From positions 124,001 through 177,105 of the forward strand of contig JBEWZL010000292.1 of assembly GCA_045837725.1 (NCBI GenBank): a stretch of 53,105 nucleotides of DNA, written 5' to 3'. The notes beneath the pieces are model-generated. The model saw only the letters and a list, made by a program, of their open reading frames with translations, had not been told where the DNA came from and ran no database searches. This DNA is from Vermamoeba vermiformis (lineage: Eukaryota). The translations under genes were made by a program, and so were the position numbers. How positions within the stretch are numbered: position 1 is the stretch's first letter; the number at the start of each line of letters is the position of its first letter. Below, in pieces: positions 7,876-39,926 of this stretch.

Positions 7876-8019
7876 TATAACTATGGATCTGTTAAGTAAA
7901 AGCACATTAATGGTTCAATCTTTCATATTTAAATGTGCAGCGCAAATTCTTGCAATTTAAAAACGGTTATTTTAAAGGGGCCCTGTAAAAGATTTTCAAA
8001 TTTTACTCAATTTCCAAAC

Positions 8020-8911
8020 ATGTCCAGCACATCAACTGCATTCGTAGTATTGTTATGTGCAGTACTTGGCTGCACTTTAGCGGCAATGACGCAAGCGGAT
8101 CGAGACACCGCTTTGAACAACCACAACGCCGAAAGAAAGGCAATCGGAATTCCATTATTATCATATAACATGACCATCGAGGCCAGTGCACAAGCTGTAG
8201 CTGATACTTGCGTATTCAAACACAGCGGAAGGTAATTCTATTTTTCAATTCAAAGATTCTGACAAACTGCGGAACCAAATAATAAATTCAATTGCCTAAT
8301 ATTATTATTAAAATGTTTTGTCGTCAGCGACTATGGTGAGAATATTTATGCTGGCGGTGGATCGTTCGGGACAATGGCTTCAGCTGTTTCAGCTTGGATG
8401 AGCGAAAAAAGCGATTGGACGTGCAGCACTAACAAGTAAAAAATGCTTTATTGCCATATAATATATTAATATAATTTTAATTCTAATCAGGTGCTCAGCA
8501 ACGTGTGGCCATTACGTAAGTGTCAATGTCGCTTGACAGTTGAAATTGATCCGCAAAATCTTTGCAAAATCTACTTACAGTTGTAATTTTACGTGCAAAA
8601 TGAATACTGATTTCGAAACATTTAGACGCAAATTGTTTGGGCGAACTCACTCAGACTCGGATGTGGTCTAACGAACTGTGGTGGCTCACTTGGAGTGTTT
8701 ATTGTCTGTCAATATGATCCCCCTGGCAATTATGTGGGCGAAAATCCATTCGATAGTAAGTAGAGCGTATGTCTAGCCATTATTGCGTACTGATAGATCT
8801 GTCTTGGCAGCTGCTTTGTGTGGCAAAACTCAAACAAGTGCCGCAAGTACTACATACACTACTGCCGCTTCAGTATGCAGCGCACTATCGCTTATGGGCC
8901 TTGTTTTCTAA
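8020..8911 (+). CDS. Secreted CAP/SCP/PR-1 family protein, copy 1 (5 exons, hydrophobic GPI-like tail)
   Basis: Signal peptide; HNAER, C.FKHS, YGENIY, CGHYTQIVWANS.RLGCG, VCQYDPPGNYVGE.PF; S/T-rich then hydrophobic C-terminus. Confidence 0.9.
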
Positions 8912-9140
8912 AGCTAAGTAAATTTCAATTTCGAATTCGTAATCATTCAGTGCTTTGTGAAGTGGCGAACGGTGTCATGCTTTCACTAACGATGCAATAA
9001 TAATATTCTTAGAGTGATTTTTGTTAGAGGAAAAGATTTGAAAGCGAGACGTTTGATTGATTTGACCGTTAATTTTTATTTTTTTGGAAATGATCAGGTG
9101 ATTTTACGATTGATTGCAAATCAACAGAGTAACAACCACA

Positions 9141-9977
9141 ATGGCTCGAGTAACTCTTATTACTATTATTTCGTGCGCGATTATTGCTTGTGCAATGGCA
9201 GCAATGACGCAACAAGATCGCGACACTGCTCTCGCGGGCCACAACGCCGAACGCGCAGTTTATGGTCTTCCTAATCTCACCTACAACATGAGTATCGAAG
9301 CTAGCGCGCAAGCACACGCGGACAAATGCGTCTTCGAGCACAGTGGATCTCCGTAAATAATTAATTAATTTTTATCCAATTTTTCTGACTGTATCTCATC
9401 GTTCTAGAGACTTTGGAGAAAATATCTTCGCAGGCAGTGGTCCCTATGGAAATATGGAGACTGCCGACTCGAGCTGGGCGGGGGAAAAAAATGATTGGGA
9501 CTGTCAGGCCAATACGTAAGTCTTACCTATTCAGCTGCGAGAATGATATAATTCTTTTGAAAGTTGCTCTGCCGTTTGCGGTCACTACGTAAGTCTTTGG
9601 TTAAAATTTACATCCAAAATCAGTTCTGATTTTCAACAATAGACTCAAATGGTCTGGGAATCATCCACTCAAATTGGTTGCGGTTTAACTAACTGTGGCG
9701 GTAATGTCGGTGTATTTATTGTGTGCCAATTCTATCCTCCTGGCAATTATGTTGGTGAACGTCCATTCGCTAGTAAGTTCAGCCGTTCTTGAACCAATTC
9801 ACGTGCTGTAATTCTAATTGACAATTTTTAACGGTAGGCTCGAAATGCAGCATGAGCCAAGCCCCTAAAAGCTCTACTTCCCCTCAATCCACTACTAGCA
9901 AGACACCCGTCAAGGCCTCGTCTGCAGCCGTTGTGTCAGTGAGTGCCTTGTCGCTCGTCACTTTGTCCATGTTGTAA
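9141..9977 (+). CDS. Secreted CAP/SCP/PR-1 family protein, copy 2 (tandem paralog)
   Basis: Signal peptide; HNAER, FGENIF, CGHYTQMVWESSTQIGCG, CQFYPPGNYVGERPF; same intron positions as copy 1. Confidence 0.9.
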
Positions 9978-10085: not shown

Positions 10086-11455
10086 TCAATCATCGTCCTC
10101 GTCTTTGAGCTCTTTGATCAGCGCGTTGATTGTCTTGTGCAGTCCGCCGCTCATGTTGATGGACACCTCGACTAACTTCTTGGACTTGGCGCCAATGTCC
10201 TCGCCACTCACAGGACTCGTCAACGGTGAGGCCCTGATAGCCTCAACGACCTTATTAATACCTGCAATCAGTTCGTCGACTGCACGCTGCATGCCAGACT
10301 TGGCAATGGGCGGTTGAGCAGCCATAATCACTTCGTCCACGTGCGCGGTCAGTTCGTTGACTTGCGCGGCCAGTTCTTCGAGCCAAGGACCACTGCTGGA
10401 CTCGAGCAAAGTAACGCTAATGTCCAGCACGCGTGCAATGTTGCCTGCAAAGCCGTGGCACAAGTTCGCAAGGCGCACGAGCTCTTTCACGAGTGCTCGT
10501 TCCGCGTCACTCAGCTTCTCATCGCCGCCAAAGAAATCATCAAATCCATCGTCACTGCCCTCACTCTCGTCATCTTCGTCATTTTTGTTGTTATCCGCTG
10601 TCACACAGTCAATATTAATCTACGCACGAGATATTATTGATTAATTTTACCTTCATCAGCTGCTTCGAGAATTTCTTTCAGTTCACTGATAGCATCTTGC
10701 ATAGTGGTAGAATTCTTTTTAATTGCTTCAGCAGTAAATGCCTAAAGAATTAATGTTAATTACATGGTAATTGGAGCTCGAATAAATAACGTACAATATT
10801 GCTGAGTTTTCCTTCTTCGATCGCTGTACAAAAGTGCCAAACTAGACCTGTTAATGTCGGCAAATTGTTGTTTTGTTTCTCTTTCTGTAATATACGCGAT
10901 TAATAATTGATTTTTAAAGTCAGATCAGGACTTACTTTTATGATCGCGGTTGTCAGTTGAGCGAGAGCGTCAAGTGTGTTGGTCATAACTGCACTTAAAT
11001 ATTTTTTCAGGTTTATTACTGTGGTAGGATGCACCATTAAGGCATAACCAGCGTAAATAAGGTTTGTGATCGACTGCCAAAAAACTGATCAGATCTTGGA
11101 TCGCATAACTAATTAATTATTAATATTCTAAATAATATTACCTTATCCATGAGCTCAACAAAATCTTTAACTTGAGCTCCTGTAGTCGCTTCTCCCGTGC
11201 CCAAATAAACTGTAATTAAATAAATTAAAAATTGAATTATTTCTCGACTAACAATTGTTATATAAACTTACATTTAGTAACAGTATTATGAACATGCTTT
11301 GCTGCTTCGACAAAAATTACGCGCAGATCGCCTTCCTTGGCATCTGAGGGAATGACCGTCGTTGAAGCTTGAGTGAGATCTACAACCTTCTCCAAGACAT
11401 TAGTAGTCTCGAGTAACTTGCTCAATTCAGCCACACGACTTTGCTCGGGATCCAT
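10086..11455 (-). CDS. Cyclin-D1-binding protein 1 / GCIP-like helical protein, multi-exon
   Basis: LPTLTGLVWHFC, DAISELKE, an acidic DDDESEGSDDGFDD linker, then LEELAAQVNELTAHVDEV...QPP; layout resembles the GCIP family. Confidence 0.65.
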
Positions 11456-11667
11456 TGCCTTCAACGATTGGGAATATCGATAGAATAAATTTCTACGAGC
11501 GAACTGAGAATTTATGGATAATCAGAAAGACCTATCTGAGAATTGCTGCAGTATAATAATGCCTATAAGTGTACGTATTCTTTAACCTTATAACTGCTGA
11601 TTTCTCTCTCGGTCGTGTCCACATTTTTTGTGCTCCATCCGTAAAATGATTTTTATTTCTGTTTACA

Positions 11668-14202
11668 ATGGCGCAACAACAAGTCCAAGGCCAGTCCATA
11701 ATTAAGTCGTGTCCTTGGGACCAGTTCTTGGACAGCAAACGGTTCAAGATCCCGCCTCATTTTGCAGATGTCAAACCCAGAGCGATTGCTAATTTAAAAG
11801 AAAATAATTTTAATTATATCCTGATCTCAACTGGTATATTGGCATCTGGATGGTAAGTAAATAAATTAAACGAACAAAATCCAAGTGAAATTGAATTTTT
11901 AAATTAATTTTAATTGATTCTCCGGAGGTATTTTTTCCCTATCCTCTCTAACAATATTCTATACTACAGTTTATTCCATAAAGCATTTGCGATCGCTATT
12001 TTCCTCACTGTAGCGTTATCTTTTGTATTATTTTATTTGGATAAACAACTGTCCACGCTTGTGAAGCGAGAATTAGATATTAAGCATAAATTGGCTGCGT
12101 TAGTGCTAGGTACGTTAAAAATAATAAGAAACAACTCCTGTACCATTACTAATTTGAATCTTTTAGGTATCTTATTTTTCTTGCTCGTTACACACAGCTT
12201 TCCCGTGTTCAAATGGTGCGCTATATTAATTGGATTAAGTACGTAATAATATGATATCAATACGACTCAAACTAATAATTCCCCAGTTGTATTGACGCAT
12301 CTGACCATTTTCGAACCTGTAACGACCTCACAACAAGTAATAACATAACACTAAATATCATGCTATAAGTTTTATTTACGCCTTGTATTTTTAGGTGAAT
12401 TTCCCTTCGCTGTTCGGAGGAGTCAAAAATGTGTTCGTGCCGCGCGGTCAAATTGCCACCACGCCCACCACAGCCACGAAGACTGAGACGAACAAGACTA
12501 ATACTCTGCGCAACACACCGACAGTGCCAGACTATCCCAAGACTGTCACAGCCACCACTACCCCTCCAGTCCCTACAAGAGAGTCTAAAACGTCCTTCCC
12601 GAACAAGCCTTTGCCTGAAGTTCCTCCCCGAAATCTCACCGGCAAAGCACAATTCGAAGCAGTCATTCAACAAAATTTGCAGCAGAAGTTATCAGAGCCC
12701 GCAACCAGTCCAAAAATGTTTCACCCGAGTCCAACAGTGACACCTGTCACTTCAGCACAGACCGGATCTGGCCCTGAAAGTCTCAAAGGTGTCAAAAGTG
12801 ATAAGCCAGACAAACGATTTTACATTGTGAAGGAGATGGTCGACACTGAGGACACGTACTGTCAGAACTTGTCGGTGATGCGTGACGTGTACATGACACC
12901 GCTGCTCGTGCTGGCCAATCAGCTGCCGAGCATTAGACCTGAAGACCTTAAAATCGTTTTCTCCAGCAGTGAAGTCATCAGCAATTACAGCGTAAAGCTC
13001 TTGGAAGAATTGCGTGAACGATTGAACGCGTGGAACAACGACAGAACTAAAGTTGGTGACATTTTCTTGCGCATGGCCGCGTTCTTGAAGACCTATCACA
13101 CGTACATTACCAACTACGCCAACGCCATCAGAACACTGCAAAAGATTCAAAAGATCCCTGAAGTCCAGGTGTGGATGGAGGTACGTTCAAAGTGCATGTC
13201 ACACGCAATAATTTTGACCCTTATTCAATCTTTCCATAACAGGAAAGAGATCGTGACCCTCGCAACAAGAACTTAGATCTCAGCAGCTATCTGATCATGC
13301 CTGTGCAACGCATCCCTCGCTACATGTTGTTGATTGAACAGTTGATCAAAAACACTGACAAGAATCATCCTGATTACCACGACCTCGTCGAGGCCAAGCA
13401 AAAGATTGACGTAAGAGTGCATAGTATTGAGACTTGCATAATTAACTAACACTTGACAGGTCGTGGCGCAACAATTGAACGAGGCTGAACGCGATGCTGA
13501 AAACATGAACAAAACTTTCAAGATCCAAGAGAAGTTGTCAGGTGACTTCGAGGTACTTAGAATAAGACATAATAACTGCTATTGAATCTTTGTCTAATTA
13601 TTCTTATTCAGACCCTTGTTGAGCCTTCACGTCGTCTGATCAAAGAAGGTGCCTTGCAATACTACAAGCCCAAAGATGTGACTAAGCCACACGTGAGCCA
13701 TACAATCAATATAGTTCGCGTGTCAGTAGCTAATTGCCGATTGTTTAGGGTGACCGTTACTTCTACCTCTTCAACGACGTCTTGTTGCATGTCAAGCTGT
13801 CAAAGAAGATCCAAAAGAAGAATTCTATCAGCGGTGCAGTGACACCTCAAGAATTGACCGCAACAGCCGCACCCAAACTGCAATTCAAAGAACAGTTCAC
13901 TTTAGGCAAAGAAGTCGCGCTGTCAGACATGGACGGACAACAGTTTGCACTCGTCGACGGCGCTGATTGGACCAAACGTCTTATCGTTCTTGAAGCCAAG
14001 TACGTTTCATGAACGACACGGCACTCACAAGCCCTTATTAATCTCGCTAATTAGGAACTCGACTGAAAAGAAGGAGTGGGTCAAGGCCATCGAAGATTGC
14101 ATTGCAGAGACCAGCAAGAAGAAGCGATTCTTCGAAGACAACATTAACAAGGTCGAAAAGCGACGTGTCAGCGGTGGCATCAATGTAAATCAGAACAATT
14201 AA
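11668..14202 (+). CDS. PRA1-like membrane domain fused to a RhoGEF (DH-PH), multi-exon
   Basis: N-terminal PWDQFLD..RFKIP....RAIANL..N..NY plus hydrophobic hairpins and a VLTHL motif (PRA1-like). DH domain: IVKEMVDTEDTY, YLIMPVQRIPRY. PH domain: RRLIKEG, YFYLFNDVLL, EKKEWVKAI. Confidence 0.8.
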
Positions 14203-14253
14203 TTTATTATTACAACATTTACAACTATTAGGCTAGACTTGTATATTACACAT

Positions 14254-15457
14254 TCAATCGATTTCCACTTCGTCGATCAAATCAGGAGGCAGTTGTGCCT
14301 CGTTGTTGATAGTAAAACTCGTATTATGACATAATTCGACTGCCGGGTACACTTTGCTGACCCCTTTTAAGTTCGTGAAGGCCACGCCTAGTGACTTCCT
14401 GTCGCAATAATATGTCACTGTGCCTTCGTCCAAGTCCACTAGCAGGCCTACACGAGCACCAACTTCCCATTTCTTGTAGTACTTGCGGTACTCTTTGTTA
14501 TGCACGAGACCACTGAAAAACGTCGAGTCGTTGTTGTAGAGCCTCAAAGTCCAGCTGTGTGGACTTTCACCGAGTCTCTCGAGCGTGTAATCATGTTGCG
14601 GTGCTGCAAGGCCAATGCTGGAGAAACATCCTAGCACGTGAAAGTGAGTAATAATGTGACCCGATGACACGTGTCACTTTTCGTACCTGGTGACTTGTTC
14701 AGAAATATCTCAAAGTAATGCCGACCACTAGAAAATGACATAGTCGTCCGTACAAACAACTGGCTTTGGCAAGGTCCTATTAAAAATGTTAGTACGTAGC
14801 GAGTTTAAGTCGACAAGTGCGATCCTTACCTTCGTATGTTGCCGTGATATTGTTGGGAATTGGAACTAACGGCGACTTATGACCAGTGTCCCAATGTAAT
14901 TTATCAATATGCACCTTGGACTTTTTCGTTGTTTTTTGCAATAATTTTAGCAGTGAAGGGATCTGATAAAATTCGGCTTCCAGAAGCAACTCTTTGTACA
15001 GATCAGGGTTCGTTGGCGGTATTAAAATTCCAGTCCGTAAATAATTTAATATCGTTCGAAAATGCAAGCCTATTATTTTGTTAATAGAGCTCCAAAGCTT
15101 CGGATTTTCAAACATACCGTCACGATCGATGAAATAATTTCCATCCTTATCCGGAGTGAGCTTATAACGTCCACTGAACATAGCTGCTAGCATGCTCTCT
15201 TCTTTTACCAGTGTTTGTAAAGACGTAGTGTACACTTGGCCTCCGACATTTAACGTGACGACTGATTCGATCGGCTTGATCACGTCCTTCATTTTTTCAA
15301 TTTCTTCCTCTAAATTATGTTTTTTATTTTGTAAATCTGTAATTTCTCGCTCTTGATTTGCCTTCCATTCGAGCAGCTCTGTTTCAAAAGATTTAATTTC
15401 TCCCAGCCATTTATCGTATAATTTATCCAATTTCCCTCGTAGGGTTTGTTGCTCCAT
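14254..15457 (-). CDS. Coiled-coil + KCTD-type BTB/POZ + SPRY domain protein
   Basis: VTLNVGGQVYTTSLQTL..SMLAAMFSG..YFIDRDG..FRTILNYLR..EAEFYQI; C-terminal VGLLVDLDEGTVTYY....LGVAF....YPAV (SPRY). Confidence 0.88.
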
Positions 15458-15591
15458 ACTTGCTGACTAAATAAACCATAACTCACCAAAAAAATCTGCT
15501 TCTGGATCCACCGAAAATTGCCCCATAAATTCCCCGACAAAATTTCAGCCAAAATGTTTTCGAGTATTCCAACTGATTATTGAATCGCAGT

Positions 15592-18500
15592 TTAATTTTT
15601 ATTAGGGTGCTTTGAAATTTGTGCAGCATCGACAGACGCTAGTTGCTTAAGATACTCTTGAGCCTCTTCGCGGGATGTCTTTCCGGTGTTAATCTGCCAC
15701 ATGACCAGTTTGCCCATGTAATAACCAATCTTAGGAGAAGAGGGCAGCTCCAATAATGCCATGATGTCGTGGCCTGTTAATATGGGACGCATAGAGATGG
15801 TTCTGAAGGCAAAGTCGTTCTCGTTCAATCGTCGCATTAAGGCCTCTTCTTGCGCGTACAAATTGGGGTCGTTGAATTGACCGATCCTAATTCGATACTG
15901 TTAGGCACCTACTACATGGCCACTCTATAACAACTTACTGGTCCATAGACTCGACGCGCAACAGTCGTGACAAGTACATGACGAGCTGTGAAAGGCAAGT
16001 TAAGGAATGAAAAATGTCTGTAGTCTAATGTGTCAAACAGTAAAGAACATGTTAAAAGGATACGGCCCAAGCTTGCGAAGACACTTTACGAAGCCACAAG
16101 CCCAATGCCTCAATGGACACGGTGCTGTACTTCGCGGCGAGCTCCTCTGCAGTGTACTTCTGAGTAGCGACGATACCAGCCTCCTTGTTGACATTGTCCA
16201 ACAGTGGCATGAACTCCAAAGCCATTTGCAGCACGTGCAATACTGAGTCTCGACGGCCACTGCGAATCTATCGAACGAATGAGTCAGTTGTCAAACATGA
16301 AGGCGCACGCGTACCGCTAACTTGGTGCACAAGTCACGTGCCAAGCGGTAGCCGTTCTTTTTGTCGACAACAGGGGACACAAAGGCACCCAACAATAGAT
16401 CGTTGTACACTTCTAATTCGGGTGTGTTCAAAAATATTCTAGAATCATAAGTTTAGCTGAAGTAATGTAAACTATGTCCGTGACGTACTCTGCAAACTTT
16501 TTGGTGCGTTCAACGGCCAAATCTAAGGAGAATTTGTTATCCTTATTGAAGGCCAGGACGGGATAAAAGACGTTATCGATCAATCCGCATTCGTGGAAGT
16601 AAGCCACGCCACGCACAATCTTCGGGGTTGGCAGGTCAAAGATCTTATCGACTTCAATGCCGATGCGTTCCGGAGACACGAGCTGTCGCAACGCCCTTTT
16701 AGTGTCCTCGTGCCTGAGTGATTTCAAGAGCAGCTCGTCAATCTTAAAGTCAAACTTGCTTGCGAATCTGACTACACGCACAGCACGCAAAGGATCTTCG
16801 AGAATAGTGGGGTCAACTTGAGCATCTAATAAGAGTCTTAATATTTGTCCGCACGAGGTGCTAATAGTGCATTACCCTTGAGCTTGTCAGCGTGCACAAC
16901 TGAGTAAGTGGTGCGCAACAAACCAGCCTTCAGATCGGCAAGAGCTTGGCCGGAAAAGTCTTCAACGGCCTCAGTGGTCAAATTGTAGTACAGACTGTTC
17001 ACTGTCAAATCACGTCGAGTGATGTCTTCAAGAGGTGTGCCGAAGGGCTTGAAAAGAGAATTAGATCAAATATTAAGACAAATATTATTTGTACGTACAG
17101 TGGCTGTCGGAATTCTGCTGTTGGTGTCGTATTCCTCGGAACGCAAATGATTGAAATTGACTTCAAAGTCGTTGAGGTGCATAATGGCAGTTTCCAAGTG
17201 TTTTGACTTGCTAGGATTAACCTTGACAATGTCTACAACAATCTATTAATATCATGCAAAACACCAACACGAGCGTGTCGCTTACGAAGGTTCTGTTCGT
17301 CGCCGTGGCTCTTCAAATAAGTTTGCACGAGTGTCGCAAAGTCAACGCCAGTCAAATTATCGACGGCAATGTCAATGTCGCCAGCATCATTGCCCAACAT
17401 TTTGTCGCGGACCCAGCCTCCAGCCACACGCAAGACAGTGTCCAATTTGAAGTGCTTGACAGTTTCTTTCAAAATGTCAAAAACTTTCTTCTCCGCGCTG
17501 GTGATGGTGATGTTGGCAGGCTTGACGACCACAGGTGCCTCGGGGTGTTGGACTTTCAATTGCTTTTTGACAATCTCTTCAGTGTTGGCCTTGTTGCGGT
17601 GCGGGTTCAAGAGCTTGGCACGAGGCGCAGATTCACCAGTATTGTTAGTGTTAGCGTTAGGGTTGTTGTTCCTCGGCTGTTGGTTTCTCGTGCGCTGTTG
17701 GAAGGGCTTTCTATTGTCGCCTTGTCGGGGTCCATTGTTGTAGTTAGATCTGTTCTGAACATTATTTTGTTGGCCAGATCCGACTTGTTGATTATTCTCA
17801 TAACTTCGTTGTCTATTGGCTACATAATTATTTCTTTGTCGTTCACCGACGGCACCCAAATAGCTATTATTAGTCTTATTCTCGCCGCTTGGAGTTGCTT
17901 GTGGTTGCTGAGTTCCTTGTTCAGTAGGCTGATTATTATTGCTAGTGTTGGGTCTATTATTATTTTCGTTGCGGTTATTGTTATAATTGTTGTTGTTATT
18001 GAACTTCTTCACAAAATTAGGGTTGCGTTCCCCGTTGTTGAAGCGCTTTTGCTGATCTGGGTTTCTATTTTGATAAGGTCTGTCATTTCGATTAAATTGA
18101 CGTCTATTGTTATCCCTGTTATTAAATTGAGGCTTATTGTTGGTATCTTGCTTTGCCTCTGCGCTGGGTGGCTGAGCAGCGTCAGCAGATGTCGAATATT
18201 TGTTTCGGCTCAGCTTGGCGCCCAAAAGTGACGTGATGGGTGCTAAAAAATTAAATCATTAGATAATTTACTGAACGATGTTTTCTAGAATTTTATAGAA
18301 TATTCTAAAATTATTTGGGATCAAGATCGCATTAGATCGACCTATTATCAATTAAATATTAGCGCTACACTATGTATTTTAATTTTTCGATATTTATTAT
18401 AGCCAAGAAAACAGCAGATCTTGGATTTACCTTGGATGCTGCGAGATCCGGCCACAGACTTTTGAAGTCCTTGCAAACAACTTTTAACTCGCAAAAACAT
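15592..18500 (-). CDS. Class II tRNA nucleotidyltransferase (CCA-adding enzyme) with a likely mitochondrial presequence and an N/Q/R-rich extension
   Basis: LRVAGGWVRDK..G....DIDIAVD, NPSKSKHLETA, SRIP loop, EDITRRDLTVNSLYYN, EDPLRAVR..RFA, VSPERIGIE. Exon 1 (ATG 18500, MFLRVKSCLQGLQK...) splices in frame. Confidence 0.88.
15986..16063 (-). other. U12-type (minor spliceosome) GT-AG intron in the CCA-adding enzyme gene
   Basis: Donor GTATCCTTT, branch site TTCCTTAAC 13 nt before the exon boundary (acceptor CAG); splicing gives an open frame QAWA|LVMYLSRLL. Confidence 0.85.
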
Positions 18501-37146: not shown

Positions 37147-38027
37147 TTATAAACAAGGCCTTGTTGTAACGTCTAACTGTTAATAATAAAAATCTTTTGT
37201 GAGTGTAACAGTGTAATTTTTAAACGGCACGGCAGTATAAATTAAGAAGCTTACTTTAATATACCCTAATACCCTAATACACCCGCAACAAATCTTGCGC
37301 GCTTTCGTTTTAAAGCTTAGCTGGCGACACTATGTCAACTTGTGCCTGTTCTTGCTCTAAAATTAAATACTAACTTTAGAAATACGCAAGGTTTTTTTGT
37401 TGGACGGCGGAGGTGGCGAGTTAAGTCAGGACACCCTGGTGTGTTGACTTAACTGCTAGTTTGGGATCGGTGGATAAGTGGTTGTGAATCACCGTCATTG
37501 GCCGGACACAAGTAACCCATTGCAGTTGATTCGGGAACATGCGCACCTTCCTCGACTGTCATTAAGAAACTAGATATTGTACGATAATTAATGATCACGA
37601 TATATGTGCATTACTTGCAACTAGGCCTGTACCGTCCTATTTCGTTGCCTCTGTTGTTCATCTTAGCACCCGTCATTTGTGGACTAAGGATCCGGAACTG
37701 AAAATTCCATTATACCTGTAAGTAAACAAATAGATTATTAATCGAAATTGGTCAATATACCACCCAATTAATGACGTTTAGGTAAGGATGGAGCTTAGCA
37801 ATACACACTTTGGACTTAAAGTCCAACAAGCATCCGCAAGTAATTAACGAGAGAGCAGTAGACCAAAGCGGTACAATTGGATTATTTATACTTGGTGTAT
37901 ATTAACTACCGAAACACAAAGGGTGAGTCCATTTTTAGTGCAAGACACAAAATCTAATTACCCGATAAACAATCAAAGGCCTGTCAATTTTTCATTCTAG
38001 AATCGAATTACCAGGATAGCACCACAA

Positions 38028-39926
38028 ATGAACACTCTTTCGGTTGTAATCTGTCTTTTGCTCGTCTCAGCATGTGCTGCCGTACCCAGCGATTCCACGG
38101 GCGTCCAGGCTTGGCGAGCTCAGGATTTCATCAATGCCTACGGAATGAACACGCATCTTGGAGGCTGTTGCACGGCACAGTACAACAACCTCACCGCTGT
38201 CGCCCAAAATCTACGCTTTATCGGGATTCAATGGCTACGAGATTCTCCGGGCAACGCTGGCGAGATTTCGATCTGGCAACGATTAGCAAACGCGACAGGC
38301 GTGACTTACCAGGCGTACATTGGTGAGGTGGGTCAAAGCTACTATGCTACTCAGCTTGGCTTCATGGGGCAGATGGTGCAGCTCGGTATTATCAACGCCA
38401 TTGAAGGTCCCAACGAAGCTGATGATAGCTACGCTGTAAGCCAGACGCAAGGTGCGACAGTGCAGAGCAATTTGGCAGCTGCTTCAGCTTTTCAAGCGAA
38501 TTCGATTTTTCCTTCGAGCCGTCAATGGGGAGTTCCGGCCATTCAAATCAGCTTCGGAAATGTGTATCCATACCCTGGTGACTTCAATGCTACAGGTGAT
38601 CAAAGTGCTTATGCCGATTATGGCAACGCTCATTCTTACCCTGAACCCAATGGTCCCAACTACGGTGGCGTTTTTGGCACTGGTCTTATCGACTGGCTCA
38701 ACCGCGTGTCACAATTGACAACGACGCCTGGCAGACCAATGACACACAGTGAGTTTGGCTACACTACTGGCTCTGGATCTCTTACTCAAACTACACACGC
38801 CAAGTACATTCTCAACTTCGGCTTCGCTGCTTGGAACTGGGGAGTGCGACGAATGGCGTACTATGCATTGTACGATGATGGATCTGGCAAATGGGGATGG
38901 TTCAATAGCGATTACACTCCTCGTCCGATTGCCACCGCTGTTAGTACCTTGTTCAGCACACTGACCGACACTGCTACTGACGCAACTTGCTTCACTCCTG
39001 GACAACTAAATGTCACATTTACTGGCTTGCCCGCAGGTCCAAAAGGTGGCGTTAACATGGGTGGACAATACGTGTTGTTCCAGCGGTCGAGCGATGGTCA
39101 TTTTATCCTTGCCATATGGAACGATCAGCAACTGGTAGATAGCTCTCACAACGACTTAAATATTCCCACCGTCCCCGTCACCGTCAGCTTCGGCTCATCG
39201 GTCTCTGTCAAGGTCACTGATCCACTCACTAATACAATCACCTCCTCAACTGGTTCTTCGATTCAAATTAACTTGCCGACCTATCCTTTGCTGTTGGAGA
39301 TCACACTAAGCAACACGGCCACTCCGCGATCAACTCCATTTATCTTTGGAAGTCAAACAATGGGCACTGCTGATCCAATATTTAAGGGCCCTTATCAAGC
39401 TTTCGTCTCTGTTGGTCAAACCCTTGCTATACAAGGAATTACGATTTCCGACAGCAGTGCTGCAACAAATCAAGGCAAAGGTTTGGTGACTATAAAATGC
39501 AATCACGGAACATTGTCAACTACCGTTGGCGGTCAAACAGTCACCGGCTCTGGTACTCAATCGATCAATTATGCTTCAACGTTATCGGGAATGCAAGAAG
39601 CTCTCGCAAATGTAGTCTACACGGCTGCGAACAACAATCTGGCAGATGCCATCTACATATCATTAACTGATCCTCTCGGCCAATCGATCTCAGCAGCGAT
39701 CTCGGTGTTTATCGTCAATTCGACAAGCTCTTGCCCACCGTCTTCGACACCCGATGCTGGTACCTCTCCAACTGGTTCATCCCCTTCTGCTGCACCTCTT
39801 GAATCTCCCTCAACTGTACCGCACGTCAACAGCCCTGGGGGTGTTTCATTCGCTGAAACTTCAGTGATTGCCGTTGGACATTTAGTTTTACTATCTTTCT
39901 TCAACATTGTTGTTTCTTTATTTTGA
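38028..39926 (+). CDS. Intronless secreted or GPI-anchored glycoside hydrolase-like protein (clan GH-A-like TIM barrel + beta-sandwich + cadherin/Ig-like domain)
   Basis: Signal peptide; GMNTH, IEGPNE (candidate acid/base), GNAHSY, HSEFGY (candidate nucleophile), YALYDD..WGWF..D.TPRP; S/P-rich stalk and hydrophobic C-terminus; 632 aa with no introns. Confidence 0.8.
   Translation: MNTLSVVICLLLVSACAAVPSDSTGVQAWRAQDFINAYGMNTHLGGCCTAQYNNLTAVAQNLRFIGIQWLRDSPGNAGEISIWQRLANATGVTYQAYIGEVGQSYYATQLGFMGQMVQLGIINAIEGPNEADDSYAVSQTQGATVQSNLAAASAFQANSIFPSSRQWGVPAIQISFGNVYPYPGDFNATGDQSAYADYGNAHSYPEPNGPNYGGVFGTGLIDWLNRVSQLTTTPGRPMTHSEFGYTTGSGSLTQTTHAKYILNFGFAAWNWGVRRMAYYALYDDGSGKWGWFNSDYTPRPIATAVSTLFSTLTDTATDATCFTPGQLNVTFTGLPAGPKGGVNMGGQYVLFQRSSDGHFILAIWNDQQLVDSSHNDLNIPTVPVTVSFGSSVSVKVTDPLTNTITSSTGSSIQINLPTYPLLLEITLSNTATPRSTPFIFGSQTMGTADPIFKGPYQAFVSVGQTLAIQGITISDSSAATNQGKGLVTIKCNHGTLSTTVGGQTVTGSGTQSINYASTLSGMQEALANVVYTAANNNLADAIYISLTDPLGQSISAAISVFIVNSTSSCPPSSTPDAGTSPTGSSPSAAPLESPSTVPHVNSPGGVSFAETSVIAVGHLVLLSFFNIVVSLF

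What the first reader, a model, noticed from the sequence alone, without database searches (positions are those of the whole stretch)
11668..14202. PRA1 (prenylated Rab acceptor)-RhoGEF fusion with a possible intron-retention switch
Seen: four exons encode a complete PRA1-like membrane domain. A GT-AG intron (~12337-12394) joins it in frame (TSQQ|VNFPS) to a Pro/Thr linker and a DH-PH RhoGEF. If that intron is retained, a stop follows within four codons (CAA GTA ATA ACA TAA), giving stand-alone PRA1. Known: PRA1 proteins are small Golgi/ER membrane proteins that bind prenylated GTPases and displace GDI; I do not recall a DH-PH fusion. Inference: one membrane protein could both capture a prenylated GTPase and load it with GTP.
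Basis: partly seen in the sequence, partly recalled or inferred. Interest (0 to 1): 0.75.

Follow-up and report, generated by a model that had tools for sequence, protein, structure and literature searches.

The report
Membrane-anchored RhoGEF with PRA1 domain
A protist gene really does join a PRA1-type membrane domain to a Rho-GTPase activator in one conserved, spliced protein, an unusual domain combination, while the proposed intron-retention switch has no support.

Summary
Window 11668-14202 (+) is one ten-exon gene with nine GT-AG introns. It encodes 657 aa: a PRA1-family membrane domain (exons 1-4), a 142-aa Thr/Pro-rich linker, then a DH-PH RhoGEF. An 88%-identical orthologue (P0001) scores PRA1 63 bits, RhoGEF 168 bits and SOS1/NGEF-PH 29.4 bits, all above Pfam cut-offs.

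The fusion is one mRNA. Five full-length and two partial uninterrupted ORFs of that orthologue exist in public assemblies, and six of the seven carry the TSQQ|VNFPS join. A near-identical run holds a contig joining exon 4 to exon 5. A third lineage (L001) keeps all nine intron positions and both neighbouring genes. dN/dS is 0.10 for PRA1 and 0.13 for the linker.

The only in-frame Met upstream of the DH domain is Val in L001, so the GEF has no conserved start of its own.

The intron-retention switch is unsupported. Four of nine introns give a stop within four codons if retained, and the intron sequence is not conserved. No other PRA1+DH protein turned up, though the searches have blind spots.

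Best reading: an endomembrane-anchored RhoGEF. GTPase capture by the PRA1 part is untested.

The parts
11668..11852 (+). Exon 1 (ATG at 11668): N-terminal cytosolic segment with the PRA1 motif, plus the first hydrophobic segment
   Evidence: Pfam PRA1 32.6 bits on this exon alone. RNA reads and an X4 contig cover 11677-11840, and 4 X23 reads continue from 11852 into exon-2-like sequence.
11970..12109 (+). Exon 2: second hydrophobic segment and the basic loop
   Evidence: An X4 contig joins 12106 to 12164, a GT..AG skip of 57.
12167..12238 (+). Exon 3: third hydrophobic segment
12287..12336 (+). Exon 4: end of the fourth hydrophobic segment; ends ...TSQQ with no stop codon
   Evidence: The last 10 letters of this exon directly precede 12395 in X4 contig record 3.
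11713..12300 (+). Extent of the PRA1 (PF03208) match, model residues 16-137, interrupted by introns 1-3
   Evidence: P0001 residues 14-135 match profile positions 8-129 of 143 at 63 bits. Mapped onto the window through the alignment.
12337..12394 (+). Intron 4 (58 nt, phase 0, GTAATA..TTTTAG): the fusion joint. Retention would read V-I-T-stop.
   Evidence: The same position holds an intron in L001 (3895-3950, 56 nt, unrelated sequence, stop after 11 codons).
12395..12823 (+). Linker (model residues 150-292 approx.): Thr/Pro/Lys-rich, with two conserved islands (150-170 and 216-256, the latter holding a PxxP-like stretch and a predicted helix)
   Evidence: Composition. Three-lineage identity is 0.95 and 0.85 in the islands against 0.56 between them. 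dN/dS 0.13. pLDDT about 25.
12824..13480 (+). DH (RhoGEF, PF00621) domain, model residues 293-474, interrupted by introns 5 and 6
   Evidence: P0001 288-469 matches profile 1-180 of 180 at 168 bits. Window exons 5 and 6 score 82.7 and 70.3 bits. Aligns to intersectin DH-PH at E 5.9e-27.
13627..14097 (+). PH domain, model residues 504-623, interrupted by introns 8 and 9
   Evidence: SOS1_NGEF_PH 29.4 bits against a cut-off of 27.7 on P0001. The phmmer alignment to intersectin runs through its PH domain: query 284-628 against chain 9-352. The AF2 model did not resolve it.
12395..13180 (+). Exon 5
   Evidence: Raw RNA reads join 13178/13180 to 13241/13243 across intron 5, 3 reads in each of 3 runs.
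13243..13410 (+). Exon 6
13460..13552 (+). Exon 7
13612..13692 (+). Exon 8
13749..13999 (+). Exon 9
14055..14202 (+). Exon 10, with stop codon TAA at 14200-14202

Best explanation
Window 11668-14202 (+) is a single ten-exon gene of a short-intron protist. Its normal, fully spliced mRNA encodes a 657-aa integral-membrane RhoGEF. The N-terminal 149 residues are a PRA1-family domain with two pairs of hydrophobic segments. Because the number of segments is even, the N-terminus and everything after residue 142 lie on the same, presumably cytosolic, side of the membrane. A 142-residue flexible linker with two conserved islands tethers a canonical DH-PH module.

Shown here: the gene structure, the domains, the single mRNA, and conservation under purifying selection in three lineages.

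Inferred: the PRA1 part inserts into an endomembrane (PRA1 proteins are ER/Golgi residents, from general knowledge). It thereby fixes the DH-PH module at that membrane, where the module catalyses GDP/GTP exchange on a prenylated Rho/Rac-family GTPase. The PRA1 part may add affinity for the prenylated substrate, but that is a possibility, not a finding. Intron 4 is an ordinary constitutive intron.
For: Gene model: all nine introns are GT..AG and the CDS of 1974 nt has no internal stop.

Domains on orthologue P0001: PRA1 63 bits (cut-off 30.1), RhoGEF 168 bits over the full profile, SOS1_NGEF_PH 29.4 bits (cut-off 27.7). Window exon 1 alone scores PRA1 32.6 bits. The DH-PH part aligns to intersectin DH-PH at E 5.9e-27 over query 284-628.

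Single mRNA: of the 14 members of P0001's 90% cluster, 5 are full-length 651-652-aa uninterrupted ORFs on contigs of 2.1-7 kb and 2 are 5'-truncated ones. Six of these seven contain the exon-4/exon-5 join. Four short members that I read run from exon 5 into intron 5, so the genomic copy in that lineage has introns and the long ORFs must come from spliced RNA. An X4 contig carries the last 10 letters of exon 4 directly before 12395.

Conservation: L001 keeps all nine intron positions, an intact 654-aa frame and both flanking genes. dN/dS between window and L001 is 0.10 for PRA1, 0.13 for the linker and 0.065 for DH. Model residues 143-169, which span the join, are identical in all three lineages.

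No independent GEF start: the only in-frame Met between residues 1 and 297 is Met257, and it is Val in L001.

Topology: hydropathy gives two hydrophobic pairs separated by 3-4-residue turns, with K/R-rich N-terminus (7 K/R in 47 residues) and central loop (5 K/R in 20).

The nearest relatives of the N-domain are stand-alone PRA1 proteins: 9 of 10 tested pass the PF03208 cut-off.
Against: No localisation, exchange-activity or binding data exist. The substrate GTPase is unknown, and the organism's genome is not held.

The AF2 model is poor (mean pLDDT 55, pTM 0.36). It draws each hydrophobic pair as one unbroken helix (45-89 and 95-138) and does not resolve the PH domain, so it neither confirms nor refutes the four-segment topology.

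RNA evidence from the window's own strain is thin. The raw RNA runs carrying the same species label are mostly only 90-95% alike (77 of 84 laid reads). Exon 4 itself received no laid reads. The direct exon 4-5 join in near-identical sequence rests on 10 letters of one contig from a run whose RNA nature is a guess.

The fused PRA1 domain scores lower against PF03208 (63 bits) than most stand-alone relatives (70-104 bits), so it is a divergent member and may have lost or changed the family's activity.
Confidence: 0.72

Rival explanations
1. Capture-and-load machine. The PRA1 module is an active acceptor or GDI-displacement module for prenylated Rho-family GTPases. It hands them to the tethered DH-PH, so membrane delivery and GTP loading are coupled in one polypeptide.
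For: PRA1 is reported to bind prenylated GTPases beyond Rabs, including RhoA, K-Ras and H-Ras (Figueroa et al. 2001, as cited in passages of PMC3576285 and PMC8242357). The PRA1 part is under purifying selection of similar strength to the rest of the protein (dN/dS 0.10), and its family motifs are kept (R36, N40, N47, Y48 nearly invariant in alignment A2). That is more than a bare hydrophobic anchor would need. A long flexible tether is compatible with hand-over.
Against: Nothing here tests binding. Purifying selection on a polytopic membrane domain is also expected for a mere anchor or targeting module. The domain is a divergent PRA1 (63 bits).
Confidence: 0.2
2. Intron-retention switch. Regulated retention of intron 4 produces a stand-alone 152-aa PRA1 protein alongside the fusion.
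For: Retention reads V-I-T-stop. The 152-aa product would be the size of the nearest stand-alone relatives, 146-168 aa in P0020's cluster. The intron 4 donor GTAATA departs more from the GTAAGT/GTACGT type than 5 of the other 8 donors in this gene.
Against: Early stops on retention are ordinary here: 4 of 9 introns stop within 4 codons and 7 of 9 within 31. In L001 the intron has a strong GTAAGC donor and an unrelated sequence, and the stop comes after 11 codons. Neither the weak donor nor the stop position is therefore conserved. No retained-intron read, contig or protein was seen. The lay and the library were both poorly suited to see one.
Confidence: 0.06
3. Two neighbouring genes (PRA1 and a RhoGEF) whose apparent fusion is a read-through or assembly chimera.
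For: PRA1 proteins are normally stand-alone and of about this size. The genome is compact, with about 50 nt between this gene's stop and the next gene's.
Against: Exon 4 has no stop codon. The linker is open, carries no ATG for 107 codons and is under purifying selection. Met257 is not conserved. The join is identical in three lineages and present in 6 independently listed spliced ORFs.
Confidence: 0.02

Closest known systems
PRA1 family (PF03208; PRA1/RABAC1, yeast Yip3, PRAF2, PRAF3/ARL6IP5)
   Same: The N-terminal 149 residues match the family profile over positions 8-129 of 143, above the curated cut-off. They have the two hydrophobic pairs and share nearly invariant residues with stand-alone members. 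The language-model search returns 30 of 30 PRA1-only clusters for this part.
   Different: Family members found here are 137-243 aa and carry no second domain. This one continues into a 500-residue linker plus DH-PH in place of a short C-terminal tail. Its score is at the low end of the family (63 bits against 70-104).
Stand-alone PRA1-like proteins of cluster P0020 (146-168 aa; unnamed environmental sequences)
   Same: This is the closest relative of the fused domain: 41% identity, E 5e-16. Subgroup motifs are shared around the first turn (LFHK) and before the fourth segment (VFKWC). It is likely the kind of gene from which the fusion arose (inference).
   Different: These proteins end about 25 residues after the fourth hydrophobic segment and have no linker or GEF.
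Dbl-family DH-PH RhoGEFs, nearest solved: intersectin-1 DH-PH (1ki1_B), FARP2, P-Rex1
   Same: Full-length DH followed directly by PH. The alignment keeps the conserved stretches of the first and third conserved DH regions (region names are recalled; the alignment is). Pfam RhoGEF scores 168 bits.
   Different: Those GEFs reach membranes through peripheral modules (SH3/EH, FERM, PH/DEP; recalled), not through an integral membrane domain. The 175-genome Dbl survey PMC5499878 has zero occurrences of 'PRA1' or 'transmembrane' in its main text. Its supplementary domain tables could not be seen.
Heterostelium album RhoGEF domain-containing protein (P0002, XP_020431451.1)
   Same: This is the nearest named DH relative: 41% identity over 45% of exon 5.
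   Different: Its architecture is CH + villin headpiece + RhoGEF (PF00307, PF02209, PF00621), with no PRA1 domain.

Membership tests
PRA1 family (PF03208) | Profile match above Pfam's gathering score | tested here: met
   P0001 scores 63.0 bits against a cut-off of 30.1, E 3e-17, residues 14-135 on profile 8-129 of 143. Window exon 1 alone scores 32.6 bits. The window's joined protein was not scanned as a whole.
PRA1 family (PF03208) | Two pairs of hydrophobic membrane segments with short turns, and both termini on one side | tested here: inconclusive
   Kyte-Doolittle hydropathy shows pairs at about 48-63/67-85 and 101-118/121-140 with 3-4-residue turns. The AF2 model (pTM 0.36) draws each pair as one long helix. 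All readings put both ends on the same side.
PRA1 family (PF03208) | Small stand-alone protein (about 150-250 aa) | tested here: not met
   The protein is 657 aa with a C-terminal DH-PH. All 17 relatives found are 91-243 aa.
PRA1 family (PF03208) | Binds prenylated small GTPases or displaces GDI | not testable with these tools
   Known for PRA1/Yip3 only from the literature (passages).
Dbl-family RhoGEF (DH-PH) | Full-length DH domain (PF00621) | tested here: met
   P0001 scores 168.2 bits, profile 1-180 of 180. Window exons 5 and 6 cover profile 1-114 and 120-172.
Dbl-family RhoGEF (DH-PH) | PH domain immediately C-terminal to the DH domain | tested here: met
   SOS1_NGEF_PH scores 29.4 bits against a cut-off of 27.7. 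PH_13 and PH fall just under their cut-offs. The phmmer alignment to intersectin DH-PH extends through its PH domain. The margin is narrow, and AF2 did not fold this part.
Dbl-family RhoGEF (DH-PH) | Conserved residues of the GTPase-contacting DH regions | tested here: met
   The alignment to 1ki1_B keeps the T-E..Y stretch near residue 290 and the L-S-S..(I/L)..P-(V/M)-Q-R..R-Y stretch near residue 420. That these are the catalytic contact regions is recalled, not tested.
Dbl-family RhoGEF (DH-PH) | Nucleotide-exchange activity on a Rho-family GTPase | not testable with these tools

The most novel reading that the evidence does not exclude
The PRA1 module is a working acceptor or GDI-displacement module for prenylated Rho/Rac GTPases, permanently tethered to their exchange factor. 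One membrane protein would then extract the GTPase from RhoGDI, seat its prenyl tail in an endomembrane and load it with GTP. Read as a Rosetta-stone fusion, it predicts that free PRA1 proteins and Dbl GEFs cooperate on Rho GTPases in other eukaryotes too. That would revive the old and little-followed observation that PRA1 binds RhoA.
Probability: 0.2. Interest if true: 0.7.

Novelty: new variant of a known kind. Interest (0 to 1): 0.45.

Why it matters
How Rho-family GTPases are released from RhoGDI and delivered to the right membrane before activation is still poorly understood. For Rabs, PRA1/Yip3 is the proposed displacement factor. A natural, conserved and expressed fusion of a PRA1 domain to a DH-PH exchange factor is genetic 'guilt by fusion' evidence that the two activities can act on the same substrate. 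It also offers a compact protein in which delivery and activation could be studied together.

On the modest reading it is a rare example of a Dbl-family GEF that is an integral membrane protein. That adds to the known inventiveness of RhoGEF architectures in amoeboid protists. It is also a clean case of how a phase-0 intron can weld two genes.

Tried and rejected
1. Own genome: none is held. I could not look for stand-alone PRA1 paralogues, Rho GTPases or RhoGDI in this organism.

2. Earlier scan notes: none by place, words or sequence.

3. Searches for the same architecture elsewhere all came back empty.
- Exon 5 against longer proteins gave 6 hits, and only P0001 has PF03208.
- The PRA1 part against proteins of 358-1140 aa gave only its own cluster, 1 hit among 1189 candidates.
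- phmmer of the PRA1 part against 1.84 billion representatives gave 17 hits, none longer than 243 aa.
- The Atlas returned PRA1-only clusters for the N-terminal part and RhoGEF/PH-only clusters for the whole protein.

Caveats on these searches: one search did not even return the query's own full-length family, so the representative of that family evidently lacks the N-terminus and other fusions could be hidden in the same way. A single-sequence phmmer search saw only 17 members of a very large family. The Atlas covers only clusters of 50 or more members.

4. Papers: 'PRA1'+'RhoGEF' gave 13 papers, seen as listing only, none about a fusion by title or abstract start. 'PF03208'+'PF00621' gave 0. 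'PRA1'/'Dbl homology'/'Amoebozoa' gave 14 papers, 12 listed. Passages of PMC5499878 hold no 'PRA1' or 'transmembrane', and its supplements are closed.

5. Taxonomy: a DDX23/Prp28 exon gave its best named hits at only 46-47% identity, scattered over eukaryotes. The organism has no close named relative in that collection. An Amoebozoa affinity is only suggested by the nearest named PRA1 hits (Cavostelium, Mastigella, Protostelium) and DH hit (Heterostelium).

6. Raw RNA reads under the same species label: too few (19, 18 and 47 laid) and too diverged to measure retention of intron 4.

8. The AF2 model of P0001 with a 34-row mixed alignment was too weak for fold searches or inter-domain contacts. 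No fold search or complex job was sent.

9. The script failed on an aligner setting. It was redone.
Full report
**Observation**

Window 11000-15000 reads as a compact eukaryotic locus of about 42% GC with short AT-rich introns. From ATG 11668, the first in-frame ATG after a stop at 11647-11649, I built a ten-exon model: 11668-11852, 11970-12109, 12167-12238, 12287-12336, 12395-13180, 13243-13410, 13460-13552, 13612-13692, 13749-13999 and 14055-14202. All nine introns are GT..AG and 48-117 nt long. The CDS is 1974 nt (657 aa) with a single terminal TAA.

Exons 1-4 give 149 codons. Intron 4 is 12337-12394, phase 0, and joins TSQQ to VNFPS. Retention would read V-I-T-stop.

**Domains**

I could not hand a joined protein to the family tools, so I searched with single exons and with a database orthologue.

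- Exon 5 as query against longer proteins returned 6 hits among 2924 candidates. The top one is P0001, 651 aa and 88% identical, precomputed as PF03208+PF00621+PF22697.
- hmmscan on P0001 gave RhoGEF 168.2 bits (residues 288-469, profile 1-180 of 180), PRA1 63.0 bits (14-135, profile 8-129 of 143, cut-off 30.1) and SOS1_NGEF_PH 29.4 bits (cut-off 27.7).
- Window exon 1 alone gave PRA1 32.6 bits. Exons 5 and 6 gave RhoGEF 82.7 and 70.3 bits.
- My spliced model aligns end to end with P0001 with no gap at any exon join.
- Against solved structures the C-terminal half aligns with intersectin DH-PH (1ki1_B, E 5.9e-27, query 284-628 against chain 9-352). The next hits are FARP2 and P-Rex1.

**Is the fusion one mRNA?**

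P0001's 90% cluster has 14 members. I read 11 of them.

- Five are full-length 651-652-aa ORFs (P0001, P0007, P0008, P0014, P0019) on contigs of 2.1-7 kb.
- Two are 5'-truncated (P0015 of 633 aa, P0011 of 492 aa).
- Six of these seven include the exon-4/exon-5 join.
- Four short members that I read (P0009, P0010, P0016, P0017) run from exon 5 straight into intron-5-like sequence, some on contigs of 56-589 kb. Three more members (P0012, P0013, P0018) have the same lengths and were not read.

So that lineage's genomic copy has introns, and the long uninterrupted ORFs must derive from spliced RNA.

For the window's own lineage I laid three raw RNA runs with the same species label, plus one contig run (X4), on 11525-13264. 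Bins were set so that one bin equals intron 4.

- The raw runs gave only 19, 18 and 47 reads, and 77 of the 84 were only 90-95% alike. They come from a diverged strain.
- They confirm splicing of intron 5 (3 reads in each run) and of intron 1 (4 X23 reads continue from 11852 into exon-2-like sequence).
- They say nothing reliable about intron 4.
- X4 (95-100% alike, RNA by guess only) holds a contig that skips intron 2.
- X4 also holds a contig whose 10 letters before 12395 equal the end of exon 4.

**Conservation**

A metagenome contig, L001, carries a third lineage. Mapping the window's exons onto it gives an intact gene with all nine introns at the same positions and a 654-aa product. One of its introns has a GC-AG donor. 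The flanking genes are the same on both sides: a GCIP-like gene upstream and a SPRY gene downstream.

Nei-Gojobori dN/dS between window and L001:

| Region | dN/dS | aa identity |
|---|---|---|
| PRA1 | 0.098 | 0.80 |
| Linker | 0.133 | 0.77 |
| DH | 0.065 | 0.89 |
| PH + tail | about 0.01 (dS saturated) | 0.93 |

In the three-way alignment, residues 143-169, which span the join, are invariant. The linker has two conserved islands: 150-170 at 0.95 identity and 216-256 at 0.85. A variable Thr/Pro stretch at 0.56 lies between them.

The only in-frame Met between residue 1 and residue 297 is Met257, and L001 has Val there. The linker and DH-PH therefore cannot be translated on their own in a conserved way. 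This, with the lack of a stop in exon 4, rules out two separate genes.

**The intron-retention switch**

An early stop on retention is not special here. Introns 1, 3, 4 and 9 stop after 1, 2, 3 and 4 codons. Introns 7, 6 and 5 stop after 10, 12 and 31 codons. Introns 2 and 8 have no stop within the intron plus 60 nt.

In L001 intron 4 is 56 nt with a GTAAGC donor and unrelated sequence, and its stop comes after 11 codons.

Two points favour the idea. The window's donor GTAATA is weak-looking, and the 152-aa product would match the size of the nearest stand-alone relatives, 146-168 aa. No data show retention. I rate it at 0.06.

**How it most likely works**

Hydropathy shows two hydrophobic pairs (about 48-63/67-85 and 101-118/121-140) with turns of 3-4 residues. 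The N-terminus and the central loop are rich in K/R. With an even number of segments, the N-terminus and the DH-PH lie on one side. By the positive-inside rule, and because Rho GTPases are cytosolic, that side is the cytosol (inference).

The AF2 model was weak: mean pLDDT 55 and pTM 0.36. The DH domain reached 80-92, the first PRA1 half about 80, and the linker and PH about 25. It drew each pair as one long helix, so it does not settle the topology.

I therefore read the protein as an integral endomembrane RhoGEF, with the PRA1 domain as anchor and address and the DH-PH on a roughly 140-residue tether.

The bolder reading is that the PRA1 part also captures the prenylated GTPase. It has a literature basis: PRA1 binds RhoA, K-Ras and H-Ras (Figueroa et al. 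2001, as cited in passages of PMC3576285 and PMC8242357). It is untested here, and I rate it at 0.2.

**Comparison with what is known, and novelty**

The nearest relatives of the N-domain are stand-alone PRA1 proteins. phmmer over 1.84 billion representatives gave 17 hits of 91-243 aa. Nine of the ten I scanned pass PF03208 with no second domain. The tenth, P0021, is an exon-2 fragment with intron read-through from what looks like a fourth lineage. The closest, P0020 at 41% identity, shares subgroup motifs.

No second PRA1+DH protein appeared. None of the paper searches turned up such a fusion. The main text of the 175-genome Dbl survey PMC5499878 never mentions PRA1 or transmembrane, and its supplements are closed.

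These negatives are limited. One search did not return the query's own full-length family, and I could not run an InterPro architecture query.

The nearest named relatives are amoebozoan, but a conserved helicase exon finds no close named organism.

**Verdict**

This is a real, expressed, conserved gene fusion and a new domain arrangement of two well-known families. Domain shuffling is common among protist RhoGEFs: PMC5499878 reports 46-108 Dbl genes in Amoebozoa with varied partner domains. The surprise is therefore moderate. The value lies in the mechanistic hint linking PRA1 to Rho activation.

Noticed in passing
window 7933-8760 and 9114-9780 (+); L001 749-1420: There are two tandem paralogues of a secreted CAP/PR-1-type gene. 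First exons score CAP 25.1 and 27.4 bits. The syntenic contig L001 has only one copy. The first window copy is the closer to it: 74-81% against 62-63% in tblastx segments.
   Followed up: partly
window 11525-13264 (lay): RNA-seq runs carrying the same species label as the window's likely source are mostly only 90-95% identical to the window in exons (77 of 84 laid reads). Three to four lineages of this gene at 78-97% identity exist in public data. The label seems to cover well-separated lineages.
   Followed up: partly
window 11677-13181 (X4 contigs): A run labelled with a different organism (coded B) holds spliced contigs 95-100% identical to this gene. Several other differently labelled runs share about 0.2 of the words. 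This protist or a near relative seems to turn up as a passenger in other organisms' data.
   Followed up: no
L001 3680-3725: Intron 2 of the orthologue has a GC-AG boundary (GCACGT donor), where the window has GT-AG (GTACGT) at the same position.
   Followed up: no
window 14254-15466 (-): A convergent neighbour encodes BTB_2 (58.7 bits) plus SPRY (55.4 bits). Its last coding ORF ends about 50 nt from the RhoGEF stop codon, so the 3' UTRs probably overlap.
   Followed up: no
window 10086-11460 (-): A divergent upstream neighbour has a weak GCIP_C match (27.6 bits, below the cut-off of 36.2). Its start lies about 210 nt from the PRA1-GEF ATG, so the two probably share a bidirectional promoter region.
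   Followed up: no
window 38001-39926 (+): This is a 641-aa uninterrupted ORF with a hydrophobic N-terminus, a Ser/Thr/Pro-rich C-terminal part and a hydrophobic tail. It looks like a secreted or GPI-anchored surface protein by eye. It has no Pfam family at E<=0.001.
   Followed up: no
window 17233-18255 (-): A long Asn/Gln-rich low-complexity ORF ends in the start of a PolyA_pol head (nucleotidyltransferase) domain at 28 bits. The opposite strand is open over the same span, probably a composition artefact.
   Followed up: no
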